Shown here piece by piece: positions 1-51,100 of a stretch of 64,000 bases of DNA. This DNA comes from Escherichia coli (lineage in GTDB: Bacteria > Pseudomonadota > Gammaproteobacteria > Enterobacterales > Enterobacteriaceae): assembly GCF_009931435.1 (NCBI RefSeq), contig NZ_CP043414.1; one strand, given 5' to 3'. Within the stretch, counting starts at the first letter, position 1, and every line of letters begins with the position of its first letter. The position numbers and the translations under genes were made by a program. The notes below the pieces were generated by a model that was given only the letters and a program-made list of their open reading frames with translations, made no database searches and had not been told where the DNA came from.

Positions 1-2616
1 TAGTTGACCGTTATTACCGTGGTAGTTCCCCTTCACCACCAACACGTTGCCAGCTTGCTGTCCTGACATTCCGGTCATCAGCGTACCGTTGTTGGTCAGA
101 TTGCCACCCAGGGTGTAATTCACTGGTGCAGCCGCTCTTTTTTCAGCGCTATTATTCAGCGCCAGGGTGCCGTTGTTCTCAATGTTTGCGTTACCCATTC
201 CCTGCGCATGACTAACCAGGACATTAGCCGAGCTAGCAATGTTCACATTCGCCGTCAGGTTGCTATTATCGCCCGCTATGTCCAGCGTGCCGCCCTGGAT
301 ATTCAGTTCCCCGTCGCCGCTTAACGAACCGCTTGAAGTCCCCCCGTTGGCAACCGTCAGAGTGCCGCCGTTTAAGTTCAGCAACGAATCGGCGCTAGCC
401 TTGAGCGTACCCACGGTCTGGCTGTGACCATTCATATCCAGTTCAGTCTCTGCCGCCAGACGCAGTTCATGGGTATTACCCAACACGTTATCGTTATTCA
501 ACAAAAGCGTCCCGCTACGCAGATCGGTAACACCGGTATAGTCATTGTCTTTGTTTGAAAGCGATACGGTCTGACCTTTCTGGCTGCTGAAGGCCAGGTC
601 ACCACTGCCGGTAACCTTTGCACTGAGATCGGCGGCATTCTCGCTCTTACCGTTGGCACTCAGCACCAGGGCGTCACTGTCGGTAGCCTGCAAATCAAGC
701 TGGGTCAGGCCGTAACCGATATACAGACCGTCATTGTTTACCCCACTCGTCAGGCGATAATCATAAGTGCCGACGGCCGCTTTTTGCCCATTCTGCTGAA
801 TATCACGCTGTGATCTGCTGGAGAGGATTTGCCCATTTTTATTCTGTAGTTGAAGATTACCCGCATCCCCCAGAACTTCCGCACCCTGTGCATCAACCAG
901 CTTAATGGTGCTGTTACCATCATCGACTTCAGTGAGCGATAACGCAGAGTCAATATCACGAGAAACAGAGCGTACAACGTCACTGTCAGTAACCTGAATC
1001 ACACCCTCGCCGCGCAAATCCAGCGTTTTACTAACGTTGACCGTCCCTTCTGTCATCTGCGCGCCAGCGGCCAGGGCACCAAAATCAACGGTTCCGCCCG
1101 AGAATCCCAGAGTGCTAATGGAGTGAGCGCCCTTACCCACTGTTATCTGGCTTCCCTGACCCGCAGTGATCCCGCCTTTCTGCAGAAACTCAGCATTTTT
1201 TTCCAGGTTAAATGTCGTGTTCTGGAACGCCAGTGAACCCTGGAACCAGTCTGTATAAGCAAACTCATCGAAGGAGAATTCGTGATTCCCCATGTTTATT
1301 TCAACAATGCCTTTACCTTCAAGATCGTTATCAAATACCCAATCTTTGTTGGCATTAATTTGCAGTTTGCCATCAACATCCAGTTCTGCACGGCCGATGT
1401 TCTTATCTTCAGAAATAACAGCGACAGCATCGGAAGCGACATCAATATATCCGCTGAATGCATAGTTATTGCCGGTCAACTCCACCGTCCCACTGTCGAT
1501 ACTTATTGTACCGTTGCCGGAAATCTTATTGGCAAAGGTCATGCTATCGTCAGCCTTCAGGTGTAATTTCCCGCGGTTGGTGATTTCTGCTGTACCTATA
1601 TTTTGGGTGATCCCTAAAGCCCCGTTTTTCTCAATTTTGACTTTACCGCTAAAGGCGGAGTTATCCCCGGTTAAGTAAGTTGTACCATTGAGCGCATTGA
1701 TATAGCCCAGGCCCTCGCTGCCACTGACAATATCCGCGGAAATAGTCGCGTTTTTATCCGTGTGGTTTAAAGTGATTTTCTTATCTGATGTCGAAGCCCA
1801 CACAAACTCAATTTTTTCGGCATCAATAATCCCTGCCGCTTTCGCATCACTCCCTTCCTGGGCACCTAACGCCAACTCAGAGTTGGTGCTTAAACTAATA
1901 GTCGGCGCAGAAACTTTACCGCCTTCTGAAACGGCAAGTGTTGTATCGGAGTTTTGGTTATAATAGCCCAGGCTAATTTGCTTACTGGCATTAACTTCAC
2001 CGCCGTTATTAACTGACAGGTACTGATTACCACCGTAACTGCTGTAAACGCCCATAAAGAAGGTTTCAGAATTTACCTGGCTGCCTTCACCACTGACATT
2101 TCCCTGCAAATAGGTCAGACGACTGGTGCCCTTAACATGGATTTTGCCGCCATTGGAGACGTTAAAATAGCCGCGATCATGCCAGGAGCCGGAGTTTGAG
2201 TCATATAAATCATCTGCATACAACTCACTACCAGCATTGGAGACGTTCAGGAAACCTGTACCTTTCAGCAGGACGTCAAGCTGACCATTGATATACACTT
2301 TCCCTCCGGTGATATCCAATCCACCACCAGAATTGAGCGTAAAGCGTGGACGCGAGGTGTCTGTTACGTTAATAACCAGATTAGCATTATCAGTCACCGT
2401 AATACGGTAATCGATGTTCTGATCGGTTTTGCCGTAATCAACAGTCTTATCCTGGTTCACGATGAAATCACCAGAGAACGCCAGAGATGAATATAAACTT
2501 ATCGCGCTAATTAAAACAGCCCGGGACTTTTTTCCTTTTACTCTGCTCCCCAGCTCCGAGCAGACGCTCCAACAGTTACGGGACCTGTTCCACTTTAGCC
2601 GATATATTTTATTCAT
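1..2616 (-). CDS. AIDA-I/Ag43-type autotransporter adhesin, N-terminal ~872 codons (gene continues past the window start)
   Basis: Manual translation of the minus strand from ATG at 2616..2614 (GGAGA RBS upstream) gives MNKIYRLKWNRSRNCWSVCSELGSRV..., the extended signal peptide typical of type Va autotransporters, followed by a Gly/Asn/Thr-rich repetitive passenger region. No complete ORF is listed by the track because the frame runs off the edge. The hand translation may contain errors. Confidence 0.7.
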   Translation of the reverse strand, partial: MNKIYRLKWNRSRNCWSVCSELGSRVKGKKSRAVLISAISLYSSLAFSGDFIVNQDKTVDYGKTDQNIDYRITVTDNANLVINVTDTSRPRFTLNSGGGLDITGGKVYINGQLDVLLKGTGFLNVSNAGSELYADDLYDSNSGSWHDRGYFNVSNGGKIHVKGTSRLTYLQGNVSGEGSQVNSETFFMGVYSSYGGNQYLSVNNGGEVNASKQISLGYYNQNSDTTLAVSEGGKVSAPTISLSTNSELALGAQEGSDAKAAGIIDAEKIEFVWASTSDKKITLNHTDKNATISADIVSGSEGLGYINALNGTTYLTGDNSAFSGKVKIEKNGALGITQNIGTAEITNRGKLHLKADDSMTFANKISGNGTISIDSGTVELTGNNYAFSGYIDVASDAVAVISEDKNIGRAELDVDGKLQINANKDWVFDNDLEGKGIVEINMGNHEFSFDEFAYTDWFQGSLAFQNTTFNLEKNAEFLQKGGITAGQGSQITVGKGAHSISTLGFSGGTVDFGALAAGAQMTEGTVNVSKTLDLRGEGVIQVTDSDVVRSVSRDIDSALSLTEVDDGNSTIKLVDAQGAEVLGDAGNLQLQNKNGQILSSRSQRDIQQNGQKAAVGTYDYRLTSGVNNDGLYIGYGLTQLDLQATDSDALVLSANGKSENAADLSAKVTGSGDLAFSSQKGQTVSLSNKDNDYTGVTDLRSGTLLLNNDNVLGNTHELRLAAETELDMNGHSQTVGTLKASADSLLNLNGGTLTVANGGTSSGSLSGDGELNIQGGTLDIAGDNSNLTANVNIASSANVLVSHAQGMGNANIENNGTLALNNSAEKRAAAPVNYTLGGNLTNNGTLMTGMSGQQAGNVLVVKGNYHGNNGQL

Positions 2617-3188
2617 CACAATCTCCAGCAATACATCCAAATAAAACTAAGATTGCATAAACAGCAACGCATTAAATGCCATTCCGGTTACTGTTCATCG
2701 CATATAAAAATTCAAAAATTTTGCATAGCATTGACAACCACATATCTGAGTATGTAGTTCAGAGGGTAATAAAATAGCAAGTTACTACTGAAAACTTATT
2801 TTAAGTTAACACTATTAACTTTATCATTACATTCCACCCAGTCTCGAATACATGCGCATTATATGTATCCAGGAACTCAAATCAACTCAAAATATAAACA
2901 AAAGCAGGAGGAATACATTTAATATACAGCCGGTAAAAGTGGTAACTCTTATTAGGTATCAAAATATAAGAATCGTCTTATTAATAAATATATAACTCTA
3001 TAGGACTGAATCCATTCAGCTAATGCAAAATAAAATCGTTAATTAATAAAATATAAAATCATGAAGTGATACAAGAGGAATTGCAGGATATGACATGACA
3101 ATCATATATAATATATGCATAATTTTTTACAGCGAGTCAATGATTTCCGCGCCATATGCAGACATGGCGCGGTTTTATGCAAAAATAA

Positions 3189-5222
3189 TCACACGTCCGG
3201 GAACATTACGCTATTACCCGGCGCTTCACGATGGAGATGGATAAAGTTTAGGTGCCGCTCGTACTGATCGAGAATATCGGTGATCACCTGCTCTTTGCTG
3301 TAGTCCATCAGGTCGTTGCCCTGGCTGCCTTCTAACAGGAAGGTTTCCAGCCGGTAGTAGGTCGATTTACCGCTACGTGCGCGGTAGGTAAAGCCCGGCA
3401 CCGAATATTGCTGCGGCCAAATCTGATAGACAAAGTTTTGCTCTTCGCCCATATGCACCAACAAATCCAGATGCCCCAACTGTTGTCCCTCTTCCGGCGG
3501 CAGGCTTTTTAGCTCCACGTACGCGCCGCGCAACCGCAGCTCCTGCGCCACTTCTTCCATTGCCGGGTAACAGACCGTCTCCATCATCTGTTTAGTGTAA
3601 CGCGTGCCCGGATAATTCATCAGGCGCGAGAGACGTTTTTTCCAGCTCAGGCGATCCTGAAGCCCCAGCGGTCGCGGCGCGGTATCACGGTTGGCACTTT
3701 CACGGCGGTAATCTTCTACCTTCAGAGATTTATACAATCCCGCCATCACGAAGAAAATCACAAAGCTGAACGGCAGCCCCATGATTACCGTGGTGTTTTG
3801 CAGCGCGGATATCCCGTTGGTCATCAGCATGCCAAGCGTCAGCAGACCAATGGCAACCGACCAGAAGACACGCAGCCAGCCCGGCGCGTCGCTGTTGATA
3901 TCTTTAAGCTGCGAGGTGAAATTCCCCAGCACCAGCGCCCCGGAATCCGCCGAAGTTACGTAGAACAGCAAGCCAGTGATGGTGGCAACCGAGGCGCTAA
4001 AGGTAAATGCCGGATATTGCGCCAGCAGGCTGTAGAAGCCGCGCTCCGGATGGACCATCGCTTCCTCGGCAAATGCCGCGCCGCCGTGGATGATTTCATA
4101 CAGCGCGCTATTGCCGAATACCGAGAGCCATAACAGCGTGAAGGTAAACGGAATAATCAACGTGCCCAGCACGAACTGGCGAATGGTACGCCCGCGCGAG
4201 ATACGCGCCAGGAACAGGCCGACAAACGGCGACCATGCCACCCACCATGCCCAGAAGAAGAGCGTCCAGTTATTCATCCACTCAACCGGACGGTCGAAGG
4301 CAAAACTGTTGAGCGTCATTCCCATAAAGCGATTCACATAGTCGCCAACGTTCAGCACCAGCGCATTAAGCAGGAACGAGGTGTCGCCCATAAACAGCAC
4401 GAACAGGATCAACCCCAGCGCCAGCGCAACGTTGAGTTCCGATAACACGCGAATGCCCTTATCGACACCGGAGGTGACAGAGATCGTTGCGATGATCACC
4501 GACAAGGCGATCAGTGCCGCTTTCGCCGCCATCGAATCGGGAATATCAAACAGTACGCTCAAGCCATAGTTAAGCTGCACCACGCCAATACCGAGCGTGG
4601 TCGCAATACCGAAAATGGTGCCGATTACCGCCGCGATATCTACCGTGTGACCAATCGGCCCGTTGATCCGTTTGCCGAAAATAGGATACAGCGCCGAGCG
4701 GATCGTGAGCGGTAAATCATAACGATAGCTAAAGTATCCAAGCGCCATGCCCATCAGCGCATACATCGACCAGCCGGTTAAGCCGTAGTGAAACAGCGTC
4801 CAGACCATCGCCTGACGCGCGGCCTCAATTGTCTGTCCCGCGCCTTCCGGCGGCTGCATATACTGCGTGACCGGCTCAGCAACGGAGAAGAACATCAGAT
4901 CAATACCAATCCCGGCAGCGAACAGCATCGCCGCCCAGCTCAGTAGACTGAATTCCGGTTTGGATTGTTCAGGCCCGAGCTTCACCGAACCAAAACGCGA
5001 ACAAGCGATGCAGACCACAAAGACAATATAGAGCGTTGCCGCCAGCAGATAGTACCAACCGAAGGTTTTAGAAACCCAGTCCAGCGTGCGGCCAATCCAC
5101 AGGGCCGAGAAGTCGCGAAACAGGATCGTTGTCAGGGAAAACAACAAAATCAGTCCGGCGGAGGTGTAAAACACCACCGGATTGATTTTGTCCTTTTCCC
5201 TGCTGTGCGAAAGGTCTGTCAT
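3189..5222 (-). CDS. betT: choline transporter BetT (BCCT family)
   Basis: 677-aa ORF, polytopic membrane protein with BCCT-like sequence; divergent from betIBA as in E. coli. Confidence 0.95.
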   Translation of the reverse strand: MTDLSHSREKDKINPVVFYTSAGLILLFSLTTILFRDFSALWIGRTLDWVSKTFGWYYLLAATLYIVFVVCIACSRFGSVKLGPEQSKPEFSLLSWAAMLFAAGIGIDLMFFSVAEPVTQYMQPPEGAGQTIEAARQAMVWTLFHYGLTGWSMYALMGMALGYFSYRYDLPLTIRSALYPIFGKRINGPIGHTVDIAAVIGTIFGIATTLGIGVVQLNYGLSVLFDIPDSMAAKAALIALSVIIATISVTSGVDKGIRVLSELNVALALGLILFVLFMGDTSFLLNALVLNVGDYVNRFMGMTLNSFAFDRPVEWMNNWTLFFWAWWVAWSPFVGLFLARISRGRTIRQFVLGTLIIPFTFTLLWLSVFGNSALYEIIHGGAAFAEEAMVHPERGFYSLLAQYPAFTFSASVATITGLLFYVTSADSGALVLGNFTSQLKDINSDAPGWLRVFWSVAIGLLTLGMLMTNGISALQNTTVIMGLPFSFVIFFVMAGLYKSLKVEDYRRESANRDTAPRPLGLQDRLSWKKRLSRLMNYPGTRYTKQMMETVCYPAMEEVAQELRLRGAYVELKSLPPEEGQQLGHLDLLVHMGEEQNFVYQIWPQQYSVPGFTYRARSGKSTYYRLETFLLEGSQGNDLMDYSKEQVITDILDQYERHLNFIHLHREAPGNSVMFPDV

Positions 5223-5350
5223 CCAGTATCCCCACTGTTATTGTTACCATTTAAAATCAAATTAGTAACAATTAAGACACATTTTATATTGAACGTCCAA
5301 TCAATAACGGCTTTAATAGATTAACAACGCTGATGAATGGAGTGGCAAAA
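5223..5350. promoter_or_regulatory. betT / betIBA divergent promoter region (expected BetI operator)
   Basis: Intergenic position between divergently transcribed betT and betI; the operator itself was not mapped by eye. Confidence 0.45.
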
Positions 5351-5938
5351 ATGCCCAAATTGGGGATGCAGTCGATCCGGCGCAGACAACTGATCGACGC
5401 CACGCTGGAAGCAATAAATGAAGTAGGTATGCACGATGCGACGATCGCGCAGATTGCCCGCCGGGCGGGCGTTTCCACCGGGATCATTAGCCACTATTTC
5501 AAAGATAAAAATGGTCTGCTGGAAGCAACCATGCGTGATATCACCAGCCAGCTGCGTGACGCGGTCTTGAACCGCTTACACGCGCTACCGGATGGCAGCC
5601 CTGAGCAGCGATTACAGGCGATTGTTGACGGAAATTTCGATGAGACTCAGGTCAGTAATGCTGCGATGAAAGCCTGGCTGGCGTTTTGGGCCAGCAGTAT
5701 GCATCAGCCGATGCTTTACCGTTTGCAGCAGGTGAGCAGCCGCCGCTTGTTGTCGAATCTGGTGAGCGAATTTCACCGCGAGTTACCGCGCAAAGAGGCA
5801 CAGGAGGCAGGTTATGGCCTGGCCGCGCTGATTGACGGTTTATGGCTGCGCGCGGCATTGAGCGGTAAACCGCTGGATAAACCTCTCGCACACTCGCTCA
5901 CCCGCCACTTTATCACTCAGCATTTACCCACCGATTAA
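5351..5938 (+). CDS. betI: TetR-family repressor BetI
   Basis: Track ORF 5333..5938; likely start at [19 protein letters not shown] giving 195 aa; TetR HTH N-terminus. Confidence 0.93.
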
Positions 5939-5948
5939 CCGAGGAGAC

Positions 5949-7424
5949 GTGATGTCCCGAATGGCAGAACAGCAGCTTTATATACATGGTGGTTATACCT
6001 CCGCCACCAGCGGTCGCACCTTCGAGACCATTAACCCGGCCAACGGTAACGTGCTGGCGACCGTGCAGGCCGCCGGGCGTGAGGATGTCGATCGCGCCGT
6101 GAAGAGCGCCCAGCAGGGGCAAAAAATCTGGGCGGCGATGACCGCCATGGAACGCTCGCGCATTCTGCGTCGGGCCGTTGATATTCTGCGCGAACGCAAT
6201 GACGAACTCGCTAAACTGGAAACCCTCGACACCGGGAAGGCGTATTCAGAAACCTCAACCGTCGATATCGTTACCGGCGCGGACGTACTGGAGTACTACG
6301 CCGGGCTGATCCCGGCGCTGGAAGGCAGCCAGATCCCGCTACGCGAGACGTCGTTTGTTTATACCCGCAGTGAACCGCTGGGCGTGGTCGCCGGAATTGG
6401 CGCATGGAACTACCCGATTCAGATTGCTTTGTGGAAATCCGCTCCGGCACTGGCCGCAGGCAACGCGATGATATTCAAACCGAGCGAAGTTACCCCGCTT
6501 ACCGCGTTAAAGCTGGCTGAAATCTACAGCGAAGCGGGCCTGCCGGACGGCGTATTTAACGTGTTGCCGGGCGTAGGTGCGGAAACCGGGCAGTATCTGA
6601 CCGAGCATCCGGGCATCGCCAAAGTGTCGTTTACCGGCGGCGTCGCCAGCGGCAAAAAGGTGATGGCTAACGCGGCGGCCTCTTCCCTGAAAGAGGTGAC
6701 CATGGAGCTGGGCGGTAAATCGCCGCTGATCGTTTTCGACGATGCAGACCTCGATCTCGCCGCCGATATCGCCATGATGGCGAACTTCTTTAGCTCCGGT
6801 CAGGTGTGTACCAATGGCACCCGCGTCTTCGTTCCGGCGAAATGCAAAGCCGCGTTTGAGCAGAAAATACTGGCGCGCGTTGAACGCATTCGCGCGGGCG
6901 ACGTTTTCGATCCGCAAACCAACTTTGGCCCGCTGGTCAGCTTCCCGCATCGCGATAACGTGCTGCGCTATATCGCCAAAGGTAAAGAGGAAGGCGCACG
7001 CGTGCTCTGCGGCGGCGATGTGCTGAAGGGTGATGGCTTCGATAACGGCGCATGGGTTGCACCGACCGTGTTCACCGATTGCCGCGACGAAATGACTATC
7101 GTGCGCGAAGAGATCTTCGGCCCGGTGATGTCGCTCCTCACGTATGAGTCTGAAGACGAAGTGATTCGCCGCGCCAATGATACCGACTACGGTCTGGCGG
7201 CGGGTATCGTCACGGCGGATCTGAACCGCGCGCATCGCGTCATTCATCAGCTGGAAGCCGGCATTTGCTGGATCAACACCTGGGGAGAATCCCCGGCGGA
7301 GATGCCCGTTGGCGGTTACAAACACTCCGGCATTGGCCGCGAGAACGGCGTGATGACGCTCCAGAGTTATACCCAGGTGAAGTCCATCCAGGTTGAGATG
7401 GCTAAATTCCAGTCCATATTCTAA
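5949..7424 (+). CDS. betB: betaine aldehyde dehydrogenase BetB
   Basis: 491-aa aldehyde dehydrogenase ORF immediately after betI. Confidence 0.96.
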
Positions 7425-7437
7425 CCAGGAGGTTTAT

Positions 7438-9126
7438 TTGCAATTTGACTACATCATTATTGGCGCCGGCTCTGCCGGCAACGTCCTCGCGACACGTCTG
7501 ACTGAAGATCCGAACACTACCGTGCTGCTGCTTGAAGCGGGCGGCCCGGACTATCGCTTTGACTTCCGTACCCAAATGCCCGCTGCGCTGGCGTTCCCGC
7601 TACAGGGTAAACGCTATAACTGGGCGTATGAGACCGAGCCGGAACCGTTTATGAACAACCGTCGCATGGAGTGCGGACGCGGTAAGGGGCTTGGTGGATC
7701 ATCACTGATCAACGGCATGTGTTACATCCGTGGTAACGCGCTGGATCTCGATAACTGGGCGAAAGAACCCGGTCTGGAGAACTGGAGCTACCTCGACTGT
7801 CTGCCCTACTATCGCAAGGCCGAGACTCGCGATGTGGGCGAGAACGACTACCACGGCGGTGATGGCCCGGTGAGCGTCACCACCTCCAAACCCGGCGTCA
7901 ATCCGCTGTTTGAAGCGATGATTGAAGCGGGCGTGCAGGCGGGCTACCCGCGCACGGACGATCTCAACGGCTATCAGCAGGAAGGTTTTGGCCCGATGGA
8001 TCGCACCGTCACGCCGCAGGGCCGTCGCGCCAGTACCGCGCGCGGTTATCTCGATCAGGCCAAATCGCGCCCTAACCTGACGATTCGTACTCACGCTATG
8101 ACCGATCACATCATTTTTGACGGCAAACGCGCGGTGGGCGTCGAGTGGCTGGAAGGCGACAGCACCATTCCGACCCGCTCGGCGGCGAATAAAGAAGTGC
8201 TGTTATGTGCAGGCGCGATTGCTTCACCGCAGATCCTGCAACGCTCCGGCGTCGGCAACGCTGGACTGCTGGCGGAGTTTGATATTCCGCTGGTGCATGA
8301 ATTACCTGGCGTCGGCGAAAATCTTCAGGATCACCTGGAGATGTATCTGCAATATGAGTGCAAAGAACCGGTTTCCCTCTACCCTGCCCTGCAGTGGTGG
8401 AATCAGCCGAAAATCGGTGCGGAGTGGCTGTTTGGCGGCACCGGCGTGGGTGCCAGCAACCACTTTGAAGCAGGTGGATTTATCCGCAGCCGTGAGGAAT
8501 TTGCGTGGCCGAACATTCAATACCACTTCCTGCCGGTAGCGATTAACTACAACGGCTCGAATGCGGTGAAAGAGCACGGTTTCCAGTGCCACGTTGGCTC
8601 AATGCGCTCGCCAAGCCGTGGGCATGTGCGGATTAAATCCCGCGACCCGCACCAGCATCCGGCGATTTTGTTTAACTACATGTCGCACGAACAGGACTGG
8701 CAGGAGTTCCGCGACGCGATTCGCATCACCCGCGAGATCATGCATCAACCGGCGCTGGATCAATACCGTGGCCGCGAAATCAGCCCCGGCGCGGAATGCC
8801 AGACAGATGAGCAGCTCGATGAGTTTGTGCGTAATCACGCCGAAACCGCCTTCCACCCATGCGGTACGTGCAAAATGGGGTACGACGAGATGTCCGTTGT
8901 GGATGGCGAAGGCCGCGTGCACGGGCTGGAAGGATTACGCGTAGTCGATGCGTCAATTATGCCGCAGATCATCACCGGCAATCTGAACGCCACGACCATT
9001 ATGATTGGCGAGAAAATGGCGGATATGATTCGCGGACGAGAAGCGTTGCCCAGAAGTCTGGCGGCGTATTTTGTGGCGAATGGGATGCCAGTAAGAGCGA
9101 AAAAACTGAATCGCGATTTGAACTAA
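7438..9126 (+). CDS. betA: choline dehydrogenase BetA (GMC oxidoreductase)
   Basis: FAD-binding motif [11 protein letters not shown] at the N-terminus; likely TTG start at 7438 preceded by AGGAGG and just after the betB stop. The track extends the ORF to 7393, overlapping betB. Confidence 0.93.
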
Positions 9127-18880: not shown

Positions 18881-21800
18881 TTATTTCATCGCCTCCTCGC
18901 CCGTTGCCGTATTGGCATCCACCGCGGTAATGGTCACCGTCACTGGCTTCATTTCGTACCCGCCATAGGTCAGGGCGTTAAATGTGAACGTATAGACACC
19001 AGGCTTGCTGGTACTAAATGTACGCGTGATTTTTCCGCTCACGAAATGGTCATTTTTCGACGGCAGGAACTGATAATCCTTCTCCGTCACCCCTTCCGGC
19101 GTCTGAATGTCGACCCACATATTCCCGCCAACGGGGTTATTTGCCGACATCAGGGTCACCTCCAGCTTCGCAGTCGATTTCCCATCCGCCACCAGCGAAG
19201 GCACATTAGATGATGCGGTGAGCTGCGCGTTTTTATCATCCGCGACGAATTTAGCTTCGGCGGTTTTCGTTGATACCTGACCGTTGTTCTGACTCACTTG
19301 CGCCGTGAGTGTATATGTCGCCGCAACAGTCGTGGTGGCGGTGAAAATAGCCTGCCCTTGCTCATTCGTTGTCGCAGTGCCATTCGGTTCCAGGTTTAAC
19401 GAAGCCGGGCTGGCGGTCAGCGTCACTTCGCTATCTTTCACCAAATTCTTATTGGCATCAGTCACCGTAACTTTATACGTTTGTTTGGCTTTGCCGTCCG
19501 CCAGTGCATAGTTGCCAATCACCTCAATACTGGAGACGGTTGCGGTAGCCTTATCGGCTACAAACGTTATAGTCTGCGTATTCGAAGGCTGGCTATTCCC
19601 TGCCGATGCCGTGATCTCATACGTTCCGGCAGTCACTGAAACCACCTGCAACTCTGCTTTCCCCTCATCGTTGGCTTTCACCCAGACATTATCGCCAGTA
19701 AGCGGCTTGACACCCCGGGGCAGATTAAATGTCACCAGAGTTCCTGGAACAGGGTTACCGTTTTTATCCTCAACGGTCGCCGTCAGCGTAAAGGCATCTT
19801 TGCCGTTTGCCACTTTTTGAACGGCGGTGTCTACCTGCAGGTTTGCCTGACCGGTGCTGGCATCCGCGTTGAATTTCACCGTGACCGTCTTCTGAGAGTT
19901 TTTCACCGCGGCCGCGATTTCAAGTTCCCCTGCAACGGTTGATATCAACTCAATATCCGCTTTACCTGCCGCATTGGTTGTTACTGTATTCCCCGTCTTG
20001 CTAGTCACACCCTGCGGTAAAGTCAGCGTAACTTCTTGCCCCTGCAACGGGTTACCATAGCTGTCCACGACGGTCAGGGTTACCTGGTTAGCAGACTGTC
20101 CATTTGCCAGTTGGTTATTCACCTTCACCGCCATATCACTGATCACTGCCCGGGAAGCGTCGCCTGCAACATTCAGCACCAATGGCTGAGCAACGGCATT
20201 TTGGCCGTTCACGCGTGGCATGACAGACAACTGACCTGCAGCCGATCCCAGCGTTAAGGTCGCCACGTAGACCCCATTACCTTTCTCTGTCCAGTTACCT
20301 GCTGAAGGACGCTCACTCCCCGTGCTGGCGGCACCGCTAAACACGGGTGCATCGAGTTTCAGGTTACTAACAGGGTTGCCATACGCATCCTTCACGGTGA
20401 AGGTAAGTTCCGTCGTCGTTTTAACCGTTGGAGTCTTATTGTCCGCAACAAGCGTAGAGTTCGCTGATGACATCTCCCCGGCGATGACCGTCAACTGCGC
20501 GGCTTCGGTGGCTGCTGGCTGGCCGTTGAAGAGCGGCATGACACGAAGTTCGCCCGTCTTTCCGCCTGTGGTCAACGTAGCAACATAGGAACCGTCACCT
20601 TTTTCGGTCCAACTGGAAATAGTCGCCCCTTCAGAGGCGGTCCCCGTCAAACTTGCCGACAACGAAAGACCACTGATAGCGTTGCCATGCGCATCTTTCG
20701 CCACCAGCGTCACGGTTGTGCTTTCGCCTGCTTTTACGCGATCTGCGGCTACAGACACTGTCGACTGGCCTGAAGATAACGCATCAGCCACCACGGTTAC
20801 TTTTGCCGCGTTTGCTGCCGCATCCTGTCCATTTAGCTTCGGCATAACTTCTAATTCACCCGCCGTAGAGCCGAGAGTAATCTGCGCAGTCCACGTCCCA
20901 TCACCATTATTTGTCCAGCCAGATGCCGTAGAACCAGCAGCTGCTGCGCCCGATAATGACGGTGCATCCGGATTGAGGCCTGTTACAGGGTTGTCATTGG
21001 CATCTTTTGCCGTCCAGATTGCCGTAAGCGTACCGCCGACCACCGGTTTATCAGGATTCAGGGTGATGGACGAGTGTGCTGCATCAAGCGGCCCGGCAAC
21101 GAACTTCAGCGTTTGTTGTAATGTGCCCAGCTGATACTGCTCGCTGAAGGCACGCACAACAACGTTTCCGGCACGGGTCGAAGAAACCGTGGCGCTGTAA
21201 ACCCCTGGTTTTATTTCCGAAATGGCACCAACGGTTACACCATTAGTGTCTTGCGGAACAAGTCGCAGGCGGCTGGCTTCTCCCGTCACCGGATTACCCT
21301 CGGAGTCCACCGCTGTCAGTGTCAGCGTGTAGGCTTGCTGACCATCAGCAACCACGTCACCTGACGGCTCGTTAGCGCTCAGGGTGGAGTTTGCCACATC
21401 CATCATCGTGGCCCGCAGTTCTGCAGTGACGGTTTTGCTCATGCCATCAACGCTAACAGTAATCGTTGCCTCACCTGACTGCGTTCCGGTCGTAAAGACA
21501 GACTGGTACACCCCTGCTTCAGTTTCGGTGAACTCACCCAGTGTGGGTTTTGCCTGTGATTTAGTGGCCTTCAGGGTACGAGTCACAATATTTCCAGCCG
21601 GTTTGAAGGATAGTTCAGTCTTGATCTGATCTTTCATGCCCTTGACTGGCTGGCCCTCTGCGTCGCGCAGAGACAGCACCAGCGGCTTTTGCTCATTACC
21701 GTTAGCAAGCATTTGAATACGGCTCTGACCGTCAAGCGTTAACGCCGTACGATCGGCGCTCATACCAGCTCCGCTAATAACCACTTCTGTCTGCACACGT

Positions 21801-23134
21801 TTCGAGGCATTGCCTTTGTTATCGTAGGCAACTGCTGAAATCGCATAATAATTGTCTTTGCCTGGACGGTAAGCCGGGAGCGTTACTTGCCACTGACTAC
21901 CCTGACCGGTAATTTTGCCACCTTCAGCCAGTAATGACGGCGCTTCCCACTGCACATTTTTCAGTCCGTGAGTTGCTTTGCTGACCACAAGCCCCAGGGA
22001 AACCGTCTGACCGCCCTTGCCTTCAATACGCTCAGGCAGAGCAATACGGATCACTTCAGATTTGCGGTACTCAAGAACGATGTTGTTATTACGCTCAACC
22101 AGGTCATAGCGGCTGCCTGCCAGCATTCGACGCTCGCGAATGCTGTCTGTATCGAGTTGTTTTTGCAGAGGTTCGCCAATTCGGTAGTTAACTTCCAGGC
22201 CAAAGCGAGTGTCATTCTCACCACTCTTGCCCTGCTTATGCCCGGCGCTCAGTGTCAGAAGAGGCACTGGTGTATAGGTTACCTCGGCAGAAATAGCATG
22301 CGGGTCTTTCTGGCGTTTATCTTTACCAAACAGCCCGACTTCATCGCCATAATACTGCTCATACATCAGGCTTGCGCCAAGCTGCGGCCAGGCAGGTAAA
22401 TAGCCCTCAGCACGAATATCCCAGCCATTCGCCGGGCGTTCCTGATAATCCTCAACATCCGGCGATTTTTTCCAGCCAGAAGCCCGGATATAACCATTGG
22501 CGCTCAGTTTCAAATAATCACGCCAGTATTCCGCACCAACACCAATGCGGGTATGACTACGGGATAAATCATGATCGATAAAAGTATTCACCCCCGCCAT
22601 CCAGTCATTTCCTGAAAAATGACGCCAGCCAAAACCAATATTTGACTGAGTACGATCGTCGGTACGATGTATTGCCCCCTGAGTGAACAACATATTTGTC
22701 GGCGTGTCATAAATCGGATAAAGCATTTCCAGCGAAGAATCCTTCAGCGAGAAATCTTTATCGACATTCAGTTTGACGCGCGCTGTACCATATTTCCCGA
22801 GCCACTCCTGTATTTCCTGGTTAGCTTTAGCGGTGGCCATTCCGGTAATAAAATTACGTGTCGCATCGCTATCTGGCTGACTGCTTAAAAATGTCCCGGC
22901 ATTCGCGGCAAGCGACGCGACATTTTTCTCCACGTTATTATCAGCAGTTACCGTAGTATTTTCCATGCTCAATCGTGGCTGAACCGCATGCTGCGCATGT
23001 GCCGCCATTACTGGGGTAAAAGTGACTGCGAGTGGGAAAAGAACCTGAACAGAGATATTTGCCCACGCCACGCAGCGGGCCAGAACTGAATAACGAAATC
23101 GTGGTTGTTTATGACCTGTTTTATAACGTGACAT
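18881..23134 (-). CDS. fdeC: intimin/invasin-family adhesin FdeC (EaeH), full length
   Basis: 1417-aa ORF with signal peptide, N-terminal beta-barrel-like region and long Thr/Val/Ala-rich Ig-like repeat region; position matches eaeH. Confidence 0.9.
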   Translation of the reverse strand: MSRYKTGHKQPRFRYSVLARCVAWANISVQVLFPLAVTFTPVMAAHAQHAVQPRLSMENTTVTADNNVEKNVASLAANAGTFLSSQPDSDATRNFITGMATAKANQEIQEWLGKYGTARVKLNVDKDFSLKDSSLEMLYPIYDTPTNMLFTQGAIHRTDDRTQSNIGFGWRHFSGNDWMAGVNTFIDHDLSRSHTRIGVGAEYWRDYLKLSANGYIRASGWKKSPDVEDYQERPANGWDIRAEGYLPAWPQLGASLMYEQYYGDEVGLFGKDKRQKDPHAISAEVTYTPVPLLTLSAGHKQGKSGENDTRFGLEVNYRIGEPLQKQLDTDSIRERRMLAGSRYDLVERNNNIVLEYRKSEVIRIALPERIEGKGGQTVSLGLVVSKATHGLKNVQWEAPSLLAEGGKITGQGSQWQVTLPAYRPGKDNYYAISAVAYDNKGNASKRVQTEVVISGAGMSADRTALTLDGQSRIQMLANGNEQKPLVLSLRDAEGQPVKGMKDQIKTELSFKPAGNIVTRTLKATKSQAKPTLGEFTETEAGVYQSVFTTGTQSGEATITVSVDGMSKTVTAELRATMMDVANSTLSANEPSGDVVADGQQAYTLTLTAVDSEGNPVTGEASRLRLVPQDTNGVTVGAISEIKPGVYSATVSSTRAGNVVVRAFSEQYQLGTLQQTLKFVAGPLDAAHSSITLNPDKPVVGGTLTAIWTAKDANDNPVTGLNPDAPSLSGAAAAGSTASGWTNNGDGTWTAQITLGSTAGELEVMPKLNGQDAAANAAKVTVVADALSSGQSTVSVAADRVKAGESTTVTLVAKDAHGNAISGLSLSASLTGTASEGATISSWTEKGDGSYVATLTTGGKTGELRVMPLFNGQPAATEAAQLTVIAGEMSSANSTLVADNKTPTVKTTTELTFTVKDAYGNPVSNLKLDAPVFSGAASTGSERPSAGNWTEKGNGVYVATLTLGSAAGQLSVMPRVNGQNAVAQPLVLNVAGDASRAVISDMAVKVNNQLANGQSANQVTLTVVDSYGNPLQGQEVTLTLPQGVTSKTGNTVTTNAAGKADIELISTVAGELEIAAAVKNSQKTVTVKFNADASTGQANLQVDTAVQKVANGKDAFTLTATVEDKNGNPVPGTLVTFNLPRGVKPLTGDNVWVKANDEGKAELQVVSVTAGTYEITASAGNSQPSNTQTITFVADKATATVSSIEVIGNYALADGKAKQTYKVTVTDANKNLVKDSEVTLTASPASLNLEPNGTATTNEQGQAIFTATTTVAATYTLTAQVSQNNGQVSTKTAEAKFVADDKNAQLTASSNVPSLVADGKSTAKLEVTLMSANNPVGGNMWVDIQTPEGVTEKDYQFLPSKNDHFVSGKITRTFSTSKPGVYTFTFNALTYGGYEMKPVTVTITAVDANTATGEEAMK

Positions 23135-32816: not shown

Positions 32817-35342
32817 ATGCCTTTACGACGGTTCTCCCCAGGACTGAAAGCCCAGTTTGCCTTCGGCATGGTCTTTTTGTTCGTTCAGCCCGATGCCAGC
32901 GCTGCTGACATAAGCGCGCAGCAAATAGGTGGGGTGATTATTCCGCAGGCCTTCAGTCAGGCGCTTCAGGACGGCATGAGCATCCCGCTCTATATTCATC
33001 TCGCCGGTAGCCAGGGTCGCCAGGACGATCAGCGAATCGGCAGCGCTTTTATCTGGTTGGATGATGGACAGTTACGCATCCGGAAAATACAGCTGGAAGA
33101 GAGTGAAGATAACGCCAGTGTCAGCGAACAAACTCGACAGCAACTGATGACTCTGGCCAACGCCCCGTTCAATGAGGCCCTTACCATCCCCCTGACTGAC
33201 AACGCGCAGTTGGATCTCAGCTTGCGCCAACTGCTGCTGCAGCTGGTGGTCAAGCGCGAAGCACTGGGCACCGTACTACGCTCACGTAGCGAAGACATCG
33301 GGCAATCCAGTGTTAACACCCTCAGCAGTAACCTGAGCTATAACTTCGGCATCTATAACAACCAGTTGCGTAACGGCGGGAACAATACATCCAGCTATCT
33401 GTCGCTAAATAACGTGACAGCACTGCGCGAACATCATGTGGTGCTCGACGGCTCGCTGTATGGGATCGGTAGCGGTCAACAGGACAGTGAATTATATAAA
33501 GCGATGTATGAACGCGATTTTGCTGGTCACCGATTTGCCGGTGGAATGCTCGACACCTGGAACTTGCAGTCCTTAGGGCCGATGACCGCCATTTCAGCAG
33601 GGAAGATTTACGGCCTTTCCTGGGGAAACCAGGCCAGCTCCACCATCTTCGACAGCAGCCAGTCGGCCACGCCAGTGATCGCCTTTTTACCGGCGGCGGG
33701 CGAAGTACATCTCACCCGTGATGGGCGGCTACTAAGCGTTCAGAACTTCACCATGGGCAATCATGAAGTGGATACCCGAGGTCTACCGTACGGTATTTAC
33801 GATGTGGAAGTTGAGGTGATCGTTAACGGTCGCGTGATCAGCAAACGCACCCAGCGGGTCAATAAGCTGTTTAGCCGGGGGCGCGGTGTCGGTGCGCCGC
33901 TGGCGTGGCAGATATGGGGCGGCAGCTTTCATATGGATCGCTGGTCGGAAAACGGGAAAAAGACGCGACCAGCTAAAGAGAGTTGGCTAGCAGGAGCCTC
34001 GACCTCCGGCTCACTGAGTACGCTTAGCTGGGCGGCAACGGGATATGGGTACGATAATCAGGCAGTAGGTGAAACCCGTCTGACGCTGCCGCTTGGGGGA
34101 GCAATCAACGTTAACCTGCAAAACATGCTGGCCAGTGACAGCTCATGGAGCAATATCGGCAGCATCAGCGCCACACTACCGGGAGGCTTCAGTTCGCTGT
34201 GGGTTAACCAGGAGAAAACCCGCATTGGCAATCAATTGCGGCGTAGCGATGCCGACAACCGTGCAATCGGCGGCACACTCAACCTGAACTCACTGTGGTC
34301 GAAGCTGGGCACATTCAGCATCAGCTACAATGATGACCGCCGCTACAACAGCCATTATTACACGGCAGATTACTATCAAAGTGTTTACAGCGGTACCTTT
34401 GGTTCGCTTGGCCTGCGAGCCGGTATTCAGCGCTATAACAACGGCGACAGCAGCGCCAATACAGGGAAATATATCGCTCTCGATCTCTCGCTACCTCTGG
34501 GCAACTGGTTTAGCGCAGGGATGACTCATCAAAACGGCTACACCATGGCAAACCTGTCAGCACGCAAGCAGTTTGATGAAGGAACCATTCGCACTGTTGG
34601 TGCCAATCTGTCACGAGCCATCTCCGGCGATACCGGTGATGACAAAACCCTCAGCGGTGGGGCGTATGCACAGTTCGACGCTCGTTACGCCAGCGGAACG
34701 CTGAACGTCAATAGCGCGGCGGACGGCTACGTCAATACCAACTTGACCGCCAATGGCAGCGTCGGCTGGCAGGGTAAAAACATCGCTGCCAGCGGGCGGA
34801 CTGATGGCAACGCTGGGGTGATATTCAACACCGGGCTGGAGGACGACGGTCAGATCAGCGCCAAAATCAACGGGCGGATTTTCCCGCTTAACGGCAAGCG
34901 CAACTACCTCCCGCTCTCTCCGTATGGGAGATATGAGGTGGAGTTGCAGAACAGCAAAAACTCACTCGACAGCTACGATATCGTCAGCGGCCGCAAAAGC
35001 CATCTGACCCTCTATCCAGGCAATGTCGCCGTCATTGAGCCAGAGGTGAAGCAGATGGTTACCGTCTCCGGTCGTATCCGTGCAGAAGACGGCACACTGC
35101 TGGCTAACGCACGGATTAACAACCATATCGGCCGAACCCGAACCGATGAAAACGGCGAGTTTGTCATGGACGTGGATAAGAAATACCCCACTATCGATTT
35201 TCGCTACAGTGGCAATAAAACCTGCGAAGTGGCACTGGAACTCGACCAGGCGCGCGGTGCCGTCTGGGTCGGTGATGTGGTCTGCAGCGGCCTCTCATCG
35301 TGGGCGGCGGTGACGCAGACAGGAGAAGAGAATGAGAGTTAA
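32817..35342 (+). CDS. ecpC: ECP outer-membrane usher EcpC
   Basis: 841-aa ORF with signal peptide; usher-sized. Confidence 0.93.
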
Positions 35343-36975
35343 CCTACTGATAGCGATGATAATCTTTGCGCTATTCTGGCCAGCAACCGCGCTCAGAGCT
35401 GCAGTGAGCAAAACAATCTGGACGGATGCACCGGCACGCGAGTTTGTGTTTGTCGAAAACAACTCAGACGACAACTTTTTCGTCACGCCTGGCGGGGCGC
35501 TGGATCCGCGCCTGACCGGTGCCAACCGCTGGACCGGTTTAAAATACACTGGCTCAGGAACCATCTATCAACAAAGCCTCGGCTACATTGATAACGGTTA
35601 CAACACCGGCCTTTATACCAACTGGAAGTTTGATATGTGGCTGGAAAATTCGCCGGTTTCATCTCCTTTAACTGGCTTGCGCTGCATCAACTGGTACGCA
35701 GGGTGTAATATGACCACCAGTCTTATCCTGCCGCAAACCACCGACGCCAGTGGATTTTATGGCGCGACGGTGACCAGCGGCGGCTCGAAGTGGATGCACG
35801 GCATGTTGTCAGACGCGTTTTACCAGTATCTGCAACAAATGCCCGTTGGCAGCAGCTTTACGATGACCATCAATGCCTGCCAAACCTCAGTGAACTATGA
35901 CGCCAGCAGCGGCGCGCGCTGTAAGGATCAGGCCTCCGGCAACTGGTATGTTCGCAACGTCACCCATACGAAAGCAGCAAATTTGCGGTTGATAAATACC
36001 CACTCGCTGGCGGAGGTATTTATCAACAGCGACGGAGTACCGACTCTGGGCGAAGGGAACGCCGACTGCCGGACGCAAACCATCGGCAGCCGTTCAGGAT
36101 TAAGTTGTAAGATGGTTAACTATACCCTGCAAACAAACGGGCTCAGCAACACCTCAATCCATATATTCCCGGCGATCGCCAACTCGTCGTTAGCCTCGGC
36201 CGTCGGGGCGTACGATATGCAGTTCAGTCTGAATGGTAGTTCATGGAAACCGGTGAGCAATACCGCTTATTACTACACCTTCAACGAGATGAAGAGCGCA
36301 GACTCGATCTATGTTTTCTTCTCGAGCAACTTCTTTAAGCAGATGGTGAACCTGGGGATCAGCGATATCAACACCAAAGATCTATTCAACTTTCGCTTTC
36401 AGAACACCACATCACCGGAGTCTGGCTGGTATGAATTTTCTACCTCCAACACGCTGATTATCAAACCCCGTGATTTCAGCATCAGTATTATCTCCGATGA
36501 ATATACTCAGACACCGTCGCGGGAGGGATATGTTGGCAGCGGCGAGTCGGCACTCGATTTCGGCTATATCGTAACCACCAGCGGTAAAACAGCTGCCGAC
36601 GAAGTGCTGATCAAGGTGACCGGACCCGCGCAGGTGATTGGCGGACGCTCCTATTGTGTCTTCAGCTCCGATGACGGTAAGGCGAAAGTACCGTTCCCGG
36701 CGACGCTTTCCTTTATTACCCGCAACGGAGCTACAAAAACCTACGATGCCGGGTGCGATGATAGCTGGCGGGATATGACCGATGCGCTGTGGCTAACCAC
36801 ACCGTGGACTGATATCTCTGGCGAAGTGGGGCAGATGGATAAGACCACTGTCAAATTTTCGATTCCAATGGATAACGCCATTTCGCTGCGTACGATAGAT
36901 GATAACGGCTGGTTTGGCGAAGTTAGCGCTTCAGGAGAGATTCATGTTCAGGCGACATGGCGTAACATTAACTAA
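35332..36975 (+). CDS. ecpD: ECP tip adhesin EcpD
   Basis: 547-aa ORF with signal peptide; start overlaps the ecpC stop. Confidence 0.9.
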
Positions 36976-38297: not shown

Positions 38298-38545
38298 AGA
38301 TGCAATAATTAATTGCACTGCCCCGCCAGCTATAATCGCGGGGCTTCGTTTTTCAGGGATAACAAAACCCGAAACTTCTTCCATCTGCCAGCAACAATGC
38401 CTCTTCCTCTATAGGGTTCTCCGGATCTACAGCATCCTGAAGTAGCGCGATGTACTCACTGGCTATCTGCATCAGAAAGTTAAAAACAATGTTTTTAACC
38501 TATAAAAATGGCGCTGTATTTGCGCCATTTTTATCATTCAATGCA

Positions 38546-51024: not shown

Positions 51025-51100
51025 TGGTGCCGATAATAGGAGTCGAACCTACGACCTTCGCATTACGAATGCGCTGCTCTACCAACTGAGCTATATCGGC
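51025..51100 (-). tRNA. thrW: tRNA-Thr (anticodon CGU)
   Basis: Reverse complement reads GCCGATATAGCTCAGTTGGTAGAGCAGCGCATTCGTAATGCGAAGGTCGTAGGTTCGACTCCTATTATCGGCACCA, a 76-nt cloverleaf with encoded CCA. Confidence 0.95.

What the first reader, a model, noticed from the sequence alone, without database searches (positions are those of the whole stretch)
1..3188. Autotransporter adhesin gene next to betT where K-12 has pdeL (yahA)
A large type Va autotransporter with the characteristic extended signal peptide occupies the position beside betT, followed by a roughly 570-bp very AT-rich upstream region (2617..3188) of the kind usually bound by H-NS. This resembles adhesin islands at this locus in pathogenic E. 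coli (possibly EhaA-like; not verified).
Basis: partly seen in the sequence, partly recalled or inferred. Interest (0 to 1): 0.4.

Follow-up and report, generated by a model that had tools for sequence, protein, structure and literature searches.

The report
EhaA adhesin gene beside betT
The window opens with the first two thirds of ehaA, a well-known E. coli surface adhesin gene, so the finding is correct but ordinary; the one new point is that its AT-rich control region carries the same promoter and regulator-binding sites that K-12, which lacks ehaA, uses for its neighbour pdeL.

Summary
Observation confirmed. Window 2616..1 (minus strand) is an uninterrupted 872-codon reading frame that runs off the window edge. 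It starts with an extended type V signal peptide (Pfam ESPR, E=3e-10). It is 94-95% identical, without gaps, to the characterised autotransporter adhesin EhaA (z0402, O-island 15) of E. coli O157:H7. betT follows at 3189-5222. The 572-bp spacer has 31% G+C against 50% for the window.

About 26% of complete E. coli genomes carry ehaA at this position. In all of those examined the order is betT-ehaA-pdeL. So ehaA sits between betT and pdeL and does not replace pdeL. The same ehaA-pdeL tandem occurs in E. albertii, so it is probably ancestral rather than a pathogen-specific island. The autochaperone and beta-barrel lie beyond the window and could not be retrieved.

Added value: the spacer contains an exact copy of the experimentally verified Cra box of the K-12 pdeL promoter, a homologue of its P1 -35/-10, and a PdeL-box-like palindrome. 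All three are conserved upstream of ehaA across Escherichia.

Verdict: a known gene in a new mosaic allele. Low interest, with a modest testable regulatory hypothesis.

The parts
1..2616 (-). ehaA, codons 1-872 of an expected ~1327 (5' two thirds, cut by the window edge)
   Evidence: Open frame. 94% aa identity to O157:H7 EhaA and 95% to strain 2017-02-2CC, colinear with no gaps. Best nucleotide identity to any of 5426 complete E. coli genomes is 95.0%.
2473..2616 (-). Signal peptide, residues 1-48: ESPR extension followed by the n-region KGKKSR and the hydrophobic core AVLISAISLYSSLAFS
   Evidence: Pfam PF13018 matches aa 1-41, E=3e-10. The AlphaFold model is disordered for aa 20-48 and ordered from about aa 50. 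The cleavage site after AFS is my own reading of the sequence.
1..2472 (-). Passenger domain (aa 49-872), predicted right-handed beta-helix. The last 34 residues (bases 1-102) align with the start of the autochaperone domain of O157 EhaA.
   Evidence: AlphaFold2 mean pLDDT 86.3, almost all beta. Top Foldseek PDB hits are Ag43 7koh/4kh3 (E=6e-6, prob 1.0), then UpaB, pertactin, IcsA and TibA. PF18883 covers aa 839-944 in the O157 protein.
2623..2626 (-). Shine-Dalgarno GGAG, 6 nt before the ATG
   Evidence: Read directly from the sequence. Conserved in all ehaA-type loci.
2617..2857 (-). Predicted ehaA leader, 241 nt between the -10 hexamer and the ATG (inferred, no TSS data)
   Evidence: Folds better than all 200 shuffles (z=-3.4). 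The hairpin at 2736-2759 keeps pairing through two compensatory changes in the E. albertii and L012 sequences.
2858..2885 (-). Sigma-70 promoter-like site TTGATT-N16-TATAAT, homologue of the K-12 pdeL P1 promoter
   Evidence: 10 of 12 consensus matches. The block GTATTTTNAGTTGATYTG...CATATAATGC is invariant or nearly so in ehaA-type E. coli, E. albertii, L012 and upstream of K-12 pdeL. The K-12 P1 mutagenesis oligo and the RNAP-interaction probe cover exactly this block.
2966..2982 (-). Palindrome AATAAG-N6-CTTAT, resembling the K-12 PdeL box CIB (AATAAG-N6-CTTATT)
   Evidence: Single occurrence in 64 kb, against 0.01 expected. Present at the same place in every ehaA-type locus. In K-12-type loci it occurs only at the CIB. 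The CIB sequence is inferred from the probe primers and figure legend.
3004..3020 (-). Cra (FruR) box GCTGAATGGATTCAGTC, identical to the EMSA-verified Cra box of the K-12 pdeL promoter
   Evidence: Only CTGAA-N4-TTCAG in the window, against 0.08 expected. Identical 17-mer in K-12, 134-137 bp upstream of the -35 in all lineages. The K-12 oligo 'CB CDB' has this sequence.
3147..3172 (.). G+C-rich hairpin just downstream of betT. It marks the right-hand limit of the ehaA-specific segment.
   Evidence: Terminator-like hit. ehaA-negative genomes align with the window only from 3147 onward.
3189..5222 (-). betT (choline transporter), the conserved neighbour
   Evidence: 677-aa ORF, annotated betT in matching genomes.

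Best explanation
The region is the 5' two thirds of ehaA plus its control region. ehaA is the chromosomal gene for the AIDA-I-type classical (type Va) autotransporter adhesin EhaA.

Shown here: an intact start, an ESPR signal peptide, and an 824-residue beta-helical passenger 94-95% identical to characterised EhaA, in the conserved position next to betT.

Inferred from established autotransporter biology and from the full-length orthologues: the protein crosses the inner membrane by Sec. A C-terminal autochaperone and 12-stranded beta-barrel (outside the window) carry the passenger to the cell surface. There it promotes cell-cell aggregation, biofilm formation and adhesion to epithelium, as reported for O157:H7 EhaA.

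Inferred from sequence conservation: transcription starts at a sigma-70 promoter (-35 at 2885-2880, -10 at 2863-2858) about 235-240 nt upstream of the ATG. The promoter lies in 31% G+C DNA that is probably silenced by H-NS. A Cra box (3004-3020) and an adjacent PdeL-box-like palindrome (2966-2982) are likely to counteract that silencing. This is the same cis module that drives pdeL in K-12, where ehaA is absent.
For: The open 872-codon frame is, and ESPR at E=3e-10 is. Identity to EhaA of O157:H7 is 94% and to strain 2017-02-2CC 95%, gap-free. 1407 of 5426 complete E. coli genomes carry the segment, annotated ehaA, next to betT.

Full-length orthologues in O157, 2CC, L009, L007 and L012 all have AC_1 and the autotransporter beta-domain. 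The AlphaFold model has pLDDT 86.3 and is all-beta, with Ag43, UpaB and pertactin as top structural matches. Function of O157 EhaA is taken from Wells et al. 2008 and Yin et al. 2009, as summarised in PMC8565820, PMC9289746 and PMC5854682.

The Cra box is identical to the K-12 EMSA oligo, and the P1 -35/-10 block is conserved with the same 134-137 bp spacing in four ehaA lineages and in K-12. K-12 pdeL promoter silencing by H-NS and activation by Cra and PdeL is reported in bioRxiv 10.1101/2021.10.01.462762.
Against: The last ~455 codons (most of the autochaperone, the linker and the barrel) are not in the window. The source contig could not be recovered. Truncated ehaA forms are common in databases, with clusters of 507-514 aa and 839-852 aa, so a disruption downstream of the window is possible.

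No transcription start, H-NS, Cra or PdeL binding data exist for ehaA in the papers searched. The promoter scan as a whole was not enriched over shuffles (4 hits against 4.2 expected), so the promoter call rests on conservation. The Cra box lies about 160 bp upstream of the predicted start, which is far for a classical activator site. The same geometry holds in K-12.
Confidence: 0.85

Rival explanations
1. ehaA is a pseudogene in this genome. The visible 872 codons are intact, but the gene is broken beyond the window by a frameshift, nonsense mutation or IS insertion, so no surface adhesin is made.
For: Truncated ehaA products are frequent: clusters of 507 aa (633 member sequences), 514 aa, and 839-852 aa, one of them from a complete 4.88-Mb chromosome. 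One complete genome has ehaA split by an IS4-like element (H52).
Against: The window's frame stays open past both common truncation points (about codon 507-514 and codon 839-852). The largest clusters are full length (1321 aa with 1008 members, 1331 aa with 160 members). Residues 841-872 are identical to the functional O157 protein.
Confidence: 0.15
2. It is a different AIDA-I-family autotransporter (YfaL/EhaC, Ag43/Cah, AIDA-I, or an ECSE_1600-type protein) rather than EhaA.
For: The only NCBIfam hit of the fragment is the ECSE_1600 family model (182.8 bits). Structural matches are to Ag43 and UpaB.
Against: The ECSE_1600 score is far below its cut-off of 2335, and O157 EhaA itself gives the same kind of sub-threshold hits. 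Identity to EhaA is 94-95% over the full 872 residues, with conserved synteny. Ag43 shares only 12-14% identity in the structural alignment.
Confidence: 0.01
3. The AT-rich spacer is the leftover of horizontally acquired island DNA with no specific regulatory content. ehaA would then be expressed, if at all, from an unrelated or weak promoter, and the shared motifs with K-12 would be coincidental.
For: The segment left of 3147 is absent from 74% of E. coli genomes and corresponds to O-island 15. AT-rich DNA yields promoter-like hexamers at chance frequency.
Against: Three separate motifs (17-mer Cra box, CIB-like palindrome, about 30-bp promoter block) keep their order and spacing in lineages whose surrounding sequence is only about 50-63% alignable. 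Each motif is unique in the 64-kb window, against 0.01-0.08 expected. The ehaA-pdeL tandem with this module also occurs in E. albertii-type and a more distant lineage, which argues for old vertical inheritance.
Confidence: 0.1

Closest known systems
EhaA (z0402 / ECs0362, O-island 15) of E. coli O157:H7 EDL933 (Wells et al. 2008)
   Same: Same gene at the same locus beside betT. 94% amino-acid identity over all 872 visible residues with no gaps. Identical ESPR signal-peptide start. Same upstream spacer length (572 vs 573 bp, about 97% identical).
   Different: This is a new mosaic allele. Codons 1-200 and 701-800 differ by 9-12% at nucleotide level from every complete E. coli genome, while codons 501-700 are nearly identical to strain 2017-02-2CC. 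Residues just after the signal peptide differ (AFSGDF vs VFADDV). The C-terminal third is unseen.
Self-associating AIDA-I-type autotransporters (Ag43, AIDA-I, TibA) and related adhesins (UpaB, pertactin, IcsA, MisL, ShdA)
   Same: Type Va architecture and a long right-handed beta-helix passenger. The C-terminal region of O157 EhaA matches AIDA-I (4mee) and IcsA (3ml3, 5ke1) by sequence. The model of the window's passenger matches Ag43 best.
   Different: Passenger sequence identity is only 11-14%. There is no PDB sequence match for residues 1-730. The host receptor of EhaA is unknown (PMC9289746).
K-12 pdeL (yahA) promoter region: P1, Cra box (CB), PdeL boxes CDB and CIB, H-NS silencing (Reinders et al., bioRxiv 10.1101/2021.10.01.462762)
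   Same: Identical 17-bp Cra box. Homologous -35/-10 block with TATAATGC. Same 134-137 bp box-to-promoter spacing. Both lie in AT-rich DNA immediately downstream of betT.
   Different: Here the module is followed by ehaA (241-nt leader), not pdeL (333-nt leader in K-12). K-12 has the palindromic PdeL box (CIB) about 180 bp upstream of the Cra box and a half-site-like CDB next to it. The ehaA type has only 170 bp between betT and the Cra box, no CIB there, and a CIB-like palindrome at the CDB position. Binding by Cra, PdeL or H-NS is untested for the ehaA type.

Membership tests
EhaA orthologue (OI-15 gene z0402) | High, colinear sequence identity to the characterised O157:H7 EhaA | tested here: met
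   816 of 872 residues identical (94%), no gaps. 95% to strain 2017-02-2CC.
EhaA orthologue (OI-15 gene z0402) | Chromosomal position between betT and pdeL, transcribed away from betT | tested here: inconclusive
   The betT side and the orientation are met. The pdeL side lies outside the window.
EhaA orthologue (OI-15 gene z0402) | Full-length product of about 1320-1330 aa | not testable with these tools
   The window ends at codon 872. The exact BetT protein, a 50-mer and a 40-mer from the window were not found in the public collections.
Type Va (classical) autotransporter, AIDA-I type | N-terminal Sec signal peptide, here with the ESPR extension | tested here: met
   PF13018 matches aa 1-41, E=3e-10, above the gathering score.
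Type Va (classical) autotransporter, AIDA-I type | Beta-helical passenger domain | tested here: met
   AlphaFold2 pLDDT 86.3 with beta strands throughout aa 50-872. Foldseek top hits are Ag43, UpaB, pertactin, IcsA and TibA. TM-scores are low (0.1-0.3), as expected for long curved helices.
Type Va (classical) autotransporter, AIDA-I type | Autochaperone domain (PF18883) at the passenger C-terminus | tested here: inconclusive
   Only its first ~34 residues (aa 839-872) are in the window. They are identical to O157 EhaA from aa 841, where PF18883 spans 839-944. There is no Pfam hit on the fragment itself.
Type Va (classical) autotransporter, AIDA-I type | C-terminal 12-stranded beta-barrel translocator (PF03797) | not testable with these tools
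   Outside the window. Present in all five full-length orthologues examined.
Type Va (classical) autotransporter, AIDA-I type | Surface display with adhesion, aggregation or biofilm phenotype | not testable with these tools
   Reported for O157 EhaA only.
H-NS-silenced promoter region | AT-rich DNA relative to the genome | tested here: met
   G+C 0.309 over 572 bp against 0.498 for the window.
H-NS-silenced promoter region | H-NS occupancy and derepression in an hns mutant | not testable with these tools
   Shown for the homologous K-12 pdeL promoter. No data for ehaA were found.
Cra/PdeL-controlled P1 promoter module (as defined for K-12 pdeL) | Cra box matching the EMSA-verified site | tested here: met
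   GCTGAATGGATTCAGTC at 3004-3020 is identical to K-12 and to oligo 4695.
Cra/PdeL-controlled P1 promoter module (as defined for K-12 pdeL) | P1 core promoter (TTGATC-N16-TATAAT in K-12) at conserved distance from the Cra box | tested here: met
   TTGATT-N16-TATAAT at 2885-2858. Spacing is 134 bp against 137 bp in K-12.
Cra/PdeL-controlled P1 promoter module (as defined for K-12 pdeL) | PdeL boxes: CDB next to the Cra box and the distal palindromic CIB | tested here: inconclusive
   There is no distal CIB. The CDB 13-mer matches 8 of 13. A CIB-like palindrome AATAAG-N6-CTTAT lies 21 bp from the Cra box. Binding is untested.
Cra/PdeL-controlled P1 promoter module (as defined for K-12 pdeL) | pdeL is the gene directly downstream | tested here: not met
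   ehaA is directly downstream. In orthologous loci pdeL follows ehaA after a conserved hairpin.

The most novel reading that the evidence does not exclude
The experimentally dissected K-12 pdeL promoter (Cra box, PdeL box, P1, H-NS silencing, bistable c-di-GMP switch) is ancestrally the ehaA promoter. In the roughly one quarter of E. coli that keep ehaA (including O157:H7), and in E. albertii, the Cra/PdeL/H-NS switch would therefore directly control the EhaA adhesin. By read-through of the conserved ehaA-pdeL hairpin it might also control pdeL itself. This would couple carbon flux and c-di-GMP state to heterogeneous adhesin expression. K-12 would then show a derived state created by loss of ehaA.
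Probability: 0.35. Interest if true: 0.5.

Novelty: already known. Interest (0 to 1): 0.2.

Why it matters
As a gene call it adds little. EhaA and its position (O-island 15, betT-ehaA-pdeL) are established, and this is one more, somewhat divergent and mosaic, allele in an otherwise ordinary E. coli chromosome segment.

The follow-up does yield one useful point. Regulation of ehaA is essentially undescribed. The sequence shows that its upstream region carries the Cra box and P1 promoter studied in detail for pdeL in K-12. That gives a concrete, cheap set of experiments on how EhaA is switched on: hns, cra and pdeL mutants, and EMSA with a 60-bp fragment. It also warns that conclusions about pdeL autoregulation drawn from K-12 may not transfer to ehaA-positive strains such as EHEC O157:H7.

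Tried and rejected
**Extending the contig**
- An exact look-up of the window's BetT protein found nothing.
- An exact 50-mer from window 1-50 was absent from the species-representative genomes.
- An allele-specific 40-mer was absent from JGI metagenomes.
- The C-terminal third therefore remains unseen.

**Other searches that gave nothing**
- A PDB sequence search with the 872-aa fragment gave no hit. Only the C-terminal part of the O157 protein matches solved structures.
- Rfam found nothing in 1-5300. The only hits in the window are IS009 and a tRNA elsewhere.
- The repeat search of 2500-3300 gave only short AT-rich chance repeats, with no invertible-element-type long inverted repeats. A phase-variable switch like that of UpaE is therefore not supported.
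- Papers mentioning both ehaA and H-NS contain no direct data. The H-NS mentions concern FdeC or other genes.
- No relevant paper links ehaA and pdeL.
- Reinders et al. 2016 (J Bacteriol) is not held.

**Ideas rejected**
- A different autotransporter family: NCBIfam hits are far below their cut-offs.
- ehaA replacing pdeL.
- The window coming from a non-coli Escherichia species: 10-50 kb of the window is 99-100% identical to three E. coli strains.
Full report
**1. What is in the sequence**

The minus strand from the ATG at 2616 to base 1 translates into 872 codons without a stop and ends on a codon boundary at the window edge. The ORF lister omits it only because it runs off the end. The product starts MNKIYRLKWNRSRNCWSVCSELGSRVKGKKSRAVLISAISLYSSLAFS. 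Pfam recognises the Extended Signal Peptide of Type V secretion in residues 1-41 (E=3e-10, above the gathering score).

The next gene on the same strand is a 677-aa ORF at 3189-5222. It is annotated betT in all matching genomes. The 572 bp between the two genes have 30.9% G+C, against 49.8% for the window and 48.7% for the coding part.

**2. Identity**

The 872 residues align without a gap to the 1327-aa protein annotated 'autotransporter adhesin EhaA'. Identity is 94% to E. coli O157:H7 and 95% to strain 2017-02-2CC. The O157 protein carries ESPR, the type 1 autochaperone domain (aa 839-944) and the autotransporter beta-domain (aa 1046-1305).

ehaA (z0402) is described as the single gene of O-island 15 of EDL933. 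It encodes a surface-located adhesin. Overexpression causes aggregation, biofilm formation and adhesion to bovine rectal epithelial cells, and deletion lowers adherence in pig ileal loops (PMC8565820, PMC9289746, PMC5854682).

NCBIfam gives only sub-threshold hits to other autotransporter families, and it does the same for O157 EhaA itself. An AlphaFold2 model of the fragment, built on 17 homologues, has mean pLDDT 86.3. The signal peptide is disordered and beta strands run from residue ~50 to 872. Its best matches among solved structures are the beta-helical passengers of Ag43 (7koh, 4kh3; E=6e-6), UpaB, pertactin, IcsA and TibA. No solved structure matches the passenger by sequence.

**3. 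Locus and distribution**

The ehaA-specific segment (window 1-3146) is found in 1407 of 5426 complete E. coli genomes. These come from humans, cattle, pigs, poultry, water and food. In all but one place it lies on the chromosome. All other genomes align with the window only from base 3147, which is 42 bp past the betT stop.

In the ehaA-positive genomes examined the order is betT, 572-573 bp spacer, ehaA, 141 bp, pdeL, yahB. In K-12 and other ehaA-negative strains pdeL follows betT after about 875 bp. So ehaA lies between betT and pdeL. It does not stand 'where K-12 has pdeL'.

A contig encoding the E. albertii-type protein (85% identical) has the same ehaA-143 bp-pdeL-yahB arrangement without bet genes beside it. 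A still more distant allele (86.6% nucleotide identity) is also followed by a pdeL-like start. The tandem therefore predates E. coli, and the K-12 arrangement is most simply a loss. This last step is an inference.

**4. The allele**

No complete E. coli genome is more than 95.0% identical to the window's ehaA segment. Yet window 10-50 kb is 99-100% identical to three E. coli strains: 2017-02-2CC, 2020CK-00188 and R32_14_1F. Two of these three lack ehaA.

Divergence is patchy. Against 2017-02-2CC, codons 501-600 show 0 nucleotide differences. Codons 1-200 and 701-800 show 9-12%. The whole first ~9 kb (ehaA-betTIBA) is 92-97% identical. This is the usual recombinational mosaic of a surface-protein locus and not a new gene.

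Database clusters show that truncated ehaA forms are common, at 507-514 aa and 839-852 aa. The window's frame is open beyond both points, but the last 455 codons are unseen. Attempts to find the source contig failed.

**5. The AT-rich spacer**

Global similarity between the ehaA-type spacer and the K-12 betT-pdeL spacer is at noise level, apart from the betT terminator hairpin. Three short blocks are nevertheless shared, in the same order.

- **(a) Cra box.** GCTGAATGGATTCAGTC lies at window 3004-3020. It is the only CTGAA-N4-TTCAG in 64 kb, against 0.08 expected. It is identical in K-12 and differs by one base in E. albertii.
- **(b) Promoter block.** The block runs from about 2895 to 2856 (my estimate from the alignment), GTATTTTGAGTTGATTTG...ATACATATAATGC. 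It contains TTGATT-N16-TATAAT (-35 at 2885-2880, -10 at 2863-2858). The promoter scan found it as a 10-of-12 match. It is almost invariant in all lineages and in K-12, and always lies 134-137 bp from block (a).
- **(c) Palindrome.** AATAAG-N6-CTTAT lies at 2966-2982. It is unique in the window, against 0.01 expected, and is present at that position in every ehaA-type locus.

The supplement of Reinders et al. (bioRxiv 10.1101/2021.10.01.462762, Table S4) identifies these blocks.
- The EMSA oligo for the Cra box plus the Cra-dependent PdeL box is TGCTGAATGGATTCAGTCTTAATGAGTGGG.
- The 'P1' promoter mutagenesis oligo and the RNA-polymerase probe span TTGATCTGGATT...CATATAATGCGCC.
[quoted passage not shown] I deduced this from the probe primers and the legend ('10 bp up- and 33 bp downstream'). 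It is an AATAAG-N6-CTTATT palindrome.

That paper shows that the K-12 promoter is silenced by H-NS, is co-activated by Cra and PdeL, and behaves as a c-di-GMP-dependent bistable switch. The spacer in the window therefore carries the orthologue of that promoter core, here in front of ehaA.

It also predicts Cra, and possibly PdeL, control of ehaA. None of this has been measured for ehaA in the papers I could search.

**6. Mechanism, with status of each step**

| Status | Steps |
|---|---|
| Shown | Intact start, ESPR signal peptide, beta-helix passenger, orthology to EhaA, conserved Cra box/promoter/palindrome |
| Inferred from family knowledge and full-length orthologues | Sec export, barrel insertion by BAM/TAM, autochaperone-assisted surface display, adhesion and aggregation |
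| Inferred from homology to K-12 | Transcription from the P1-like promoter with a ~235-240-nt leader, H-NS silencing, Cra/PdeL anti-silencing |
| Speculative | Read-through into pdeL |

On the speculative step: the ehaA-pdeL spacer, which lies outside the window, is 89% conserved across species. It contains a hairpin that keeps pairing through a compensatory change, and its U-tract is poor in the ehaA direction.

**7. Verdict**

The object is a known gene (ehaA, OI-15) at its known locus, in a new mosaic allele. The gene is truncated only by the window edge as far as can be seen. Interest is low. The only non-trivial outcome is the link between the ehaA upstream region and the K-12 pdeL promoter, which is a testable regulatory hypothesis of moderate specialist interest.

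Noticed in passing
window 2617-2857 (minus strand); hairpins at 2736-2759 and 2611-2662: The predicted ehaA leader folds more stably than all 200 shuffles (z=-3.4). The hairpin at 2736-2759 keeps pairing through two compensatory changes in the E. albertii and L012 sequences. The last hairpin pairs the Shine-Dalgarno sequence (2623-2626) and the AUG with an upstream segment, which could mean translational control. Only five sequences were compared, three of them near-identical, and the transcription start is unproven.
   Followed up: partly
L001 6492-6632 (O157:H7), L007 9997-10139, L012 5326-5466 (outside the window): The 141-143 bp between the ehaA stop and the pdeL start are 89% conserved across Escherichia lineages. 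That is more conserved than the ehaA coding sequence itself. The spacer includes an 11-12 bp G+C-rich hairpin with a compensatory change. No sigma-70-like promoter was detected there, which raises the question of how pdeL is transcribed in ehaA-positive strains.
   Followed up: partly
L001 6266-6503 vs L003 5900-6136 (outside the window): The 5' end of pdeL (the HTH DNA-binding part) is only about 84% identical at nucleotide level between ehaA-positive (O157) and ehaA-negative lineages. Homology between the two haplotypes stops about 11 bp upstream of the pdeL ATG. PGAP also names the two forms differently ('EAL domain-containing protein' against 'DNA-binding transcriptional activator/c-di-GMP phosphodiesterase PdeL').
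   Followed up: no
window 1-9000 compared with 10000-50000: ehaA-betT-betI-betB-betA form a block only 92-97% identical to the closest genomes. The following 40 kb are 99-100% identical to the same genomes. This points to an imported or recombinationally scrambled segment. The window's exact BetT protein is absent from the 15-billion-protein collection.
   Followed up: partly
window 18881-23134 (minus strand): fdeC (eaeH), an inverse autotransporter adhesin of 1417 aa, is intact. It has a locally divergent kilobase (19001-20000, 91-93% identity to the nearest genomes). Together with ehaA and the ecpRABCDE common-pilus operon (ecpC at 32817-35342, ecpD at 35332-36975), the window holds three adhesin loci. 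FdeC is reported in the literature to be H-NS- and temperature-regulated.
   Followed up: no
window 51028-51100 (minus strand): A tRNA (thrW position, next to proA at 51215-52468) has no island inserted beside it. The closest relative, 2017-02-2CC, carries phage/plasmid-like genes (primase, ProQ/FinO-family protein, IS3) at the corresponding position. From my own knowledge, K-12 has the CP4-6 prophage there.
   Followed up: no
window 38340-38540 (minus strand): Rfam hit to IS009, a candidate small RNA (196 bits against a gathering score of 117), lying after the ecp operon.
   Followed up: no
window 59603-60754 (minus strand): A 383-aa ORF lies where O145:H28 strains have an RtcB-family RNA ligase gene split by ISEc20, next to prfH. 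It appears uninterrupted in the window.
   Followed up: no
L005 2803-2877 (K-12, outside the window): K-12 annotates a 24-codon gene, yahV, in the betT-pdeL spacer just upstream of the Cra box. The ehaA-type spacer has only 170 bp between betT and the Cra box and no alignable counterpart of this stretch.
   Followed up: no
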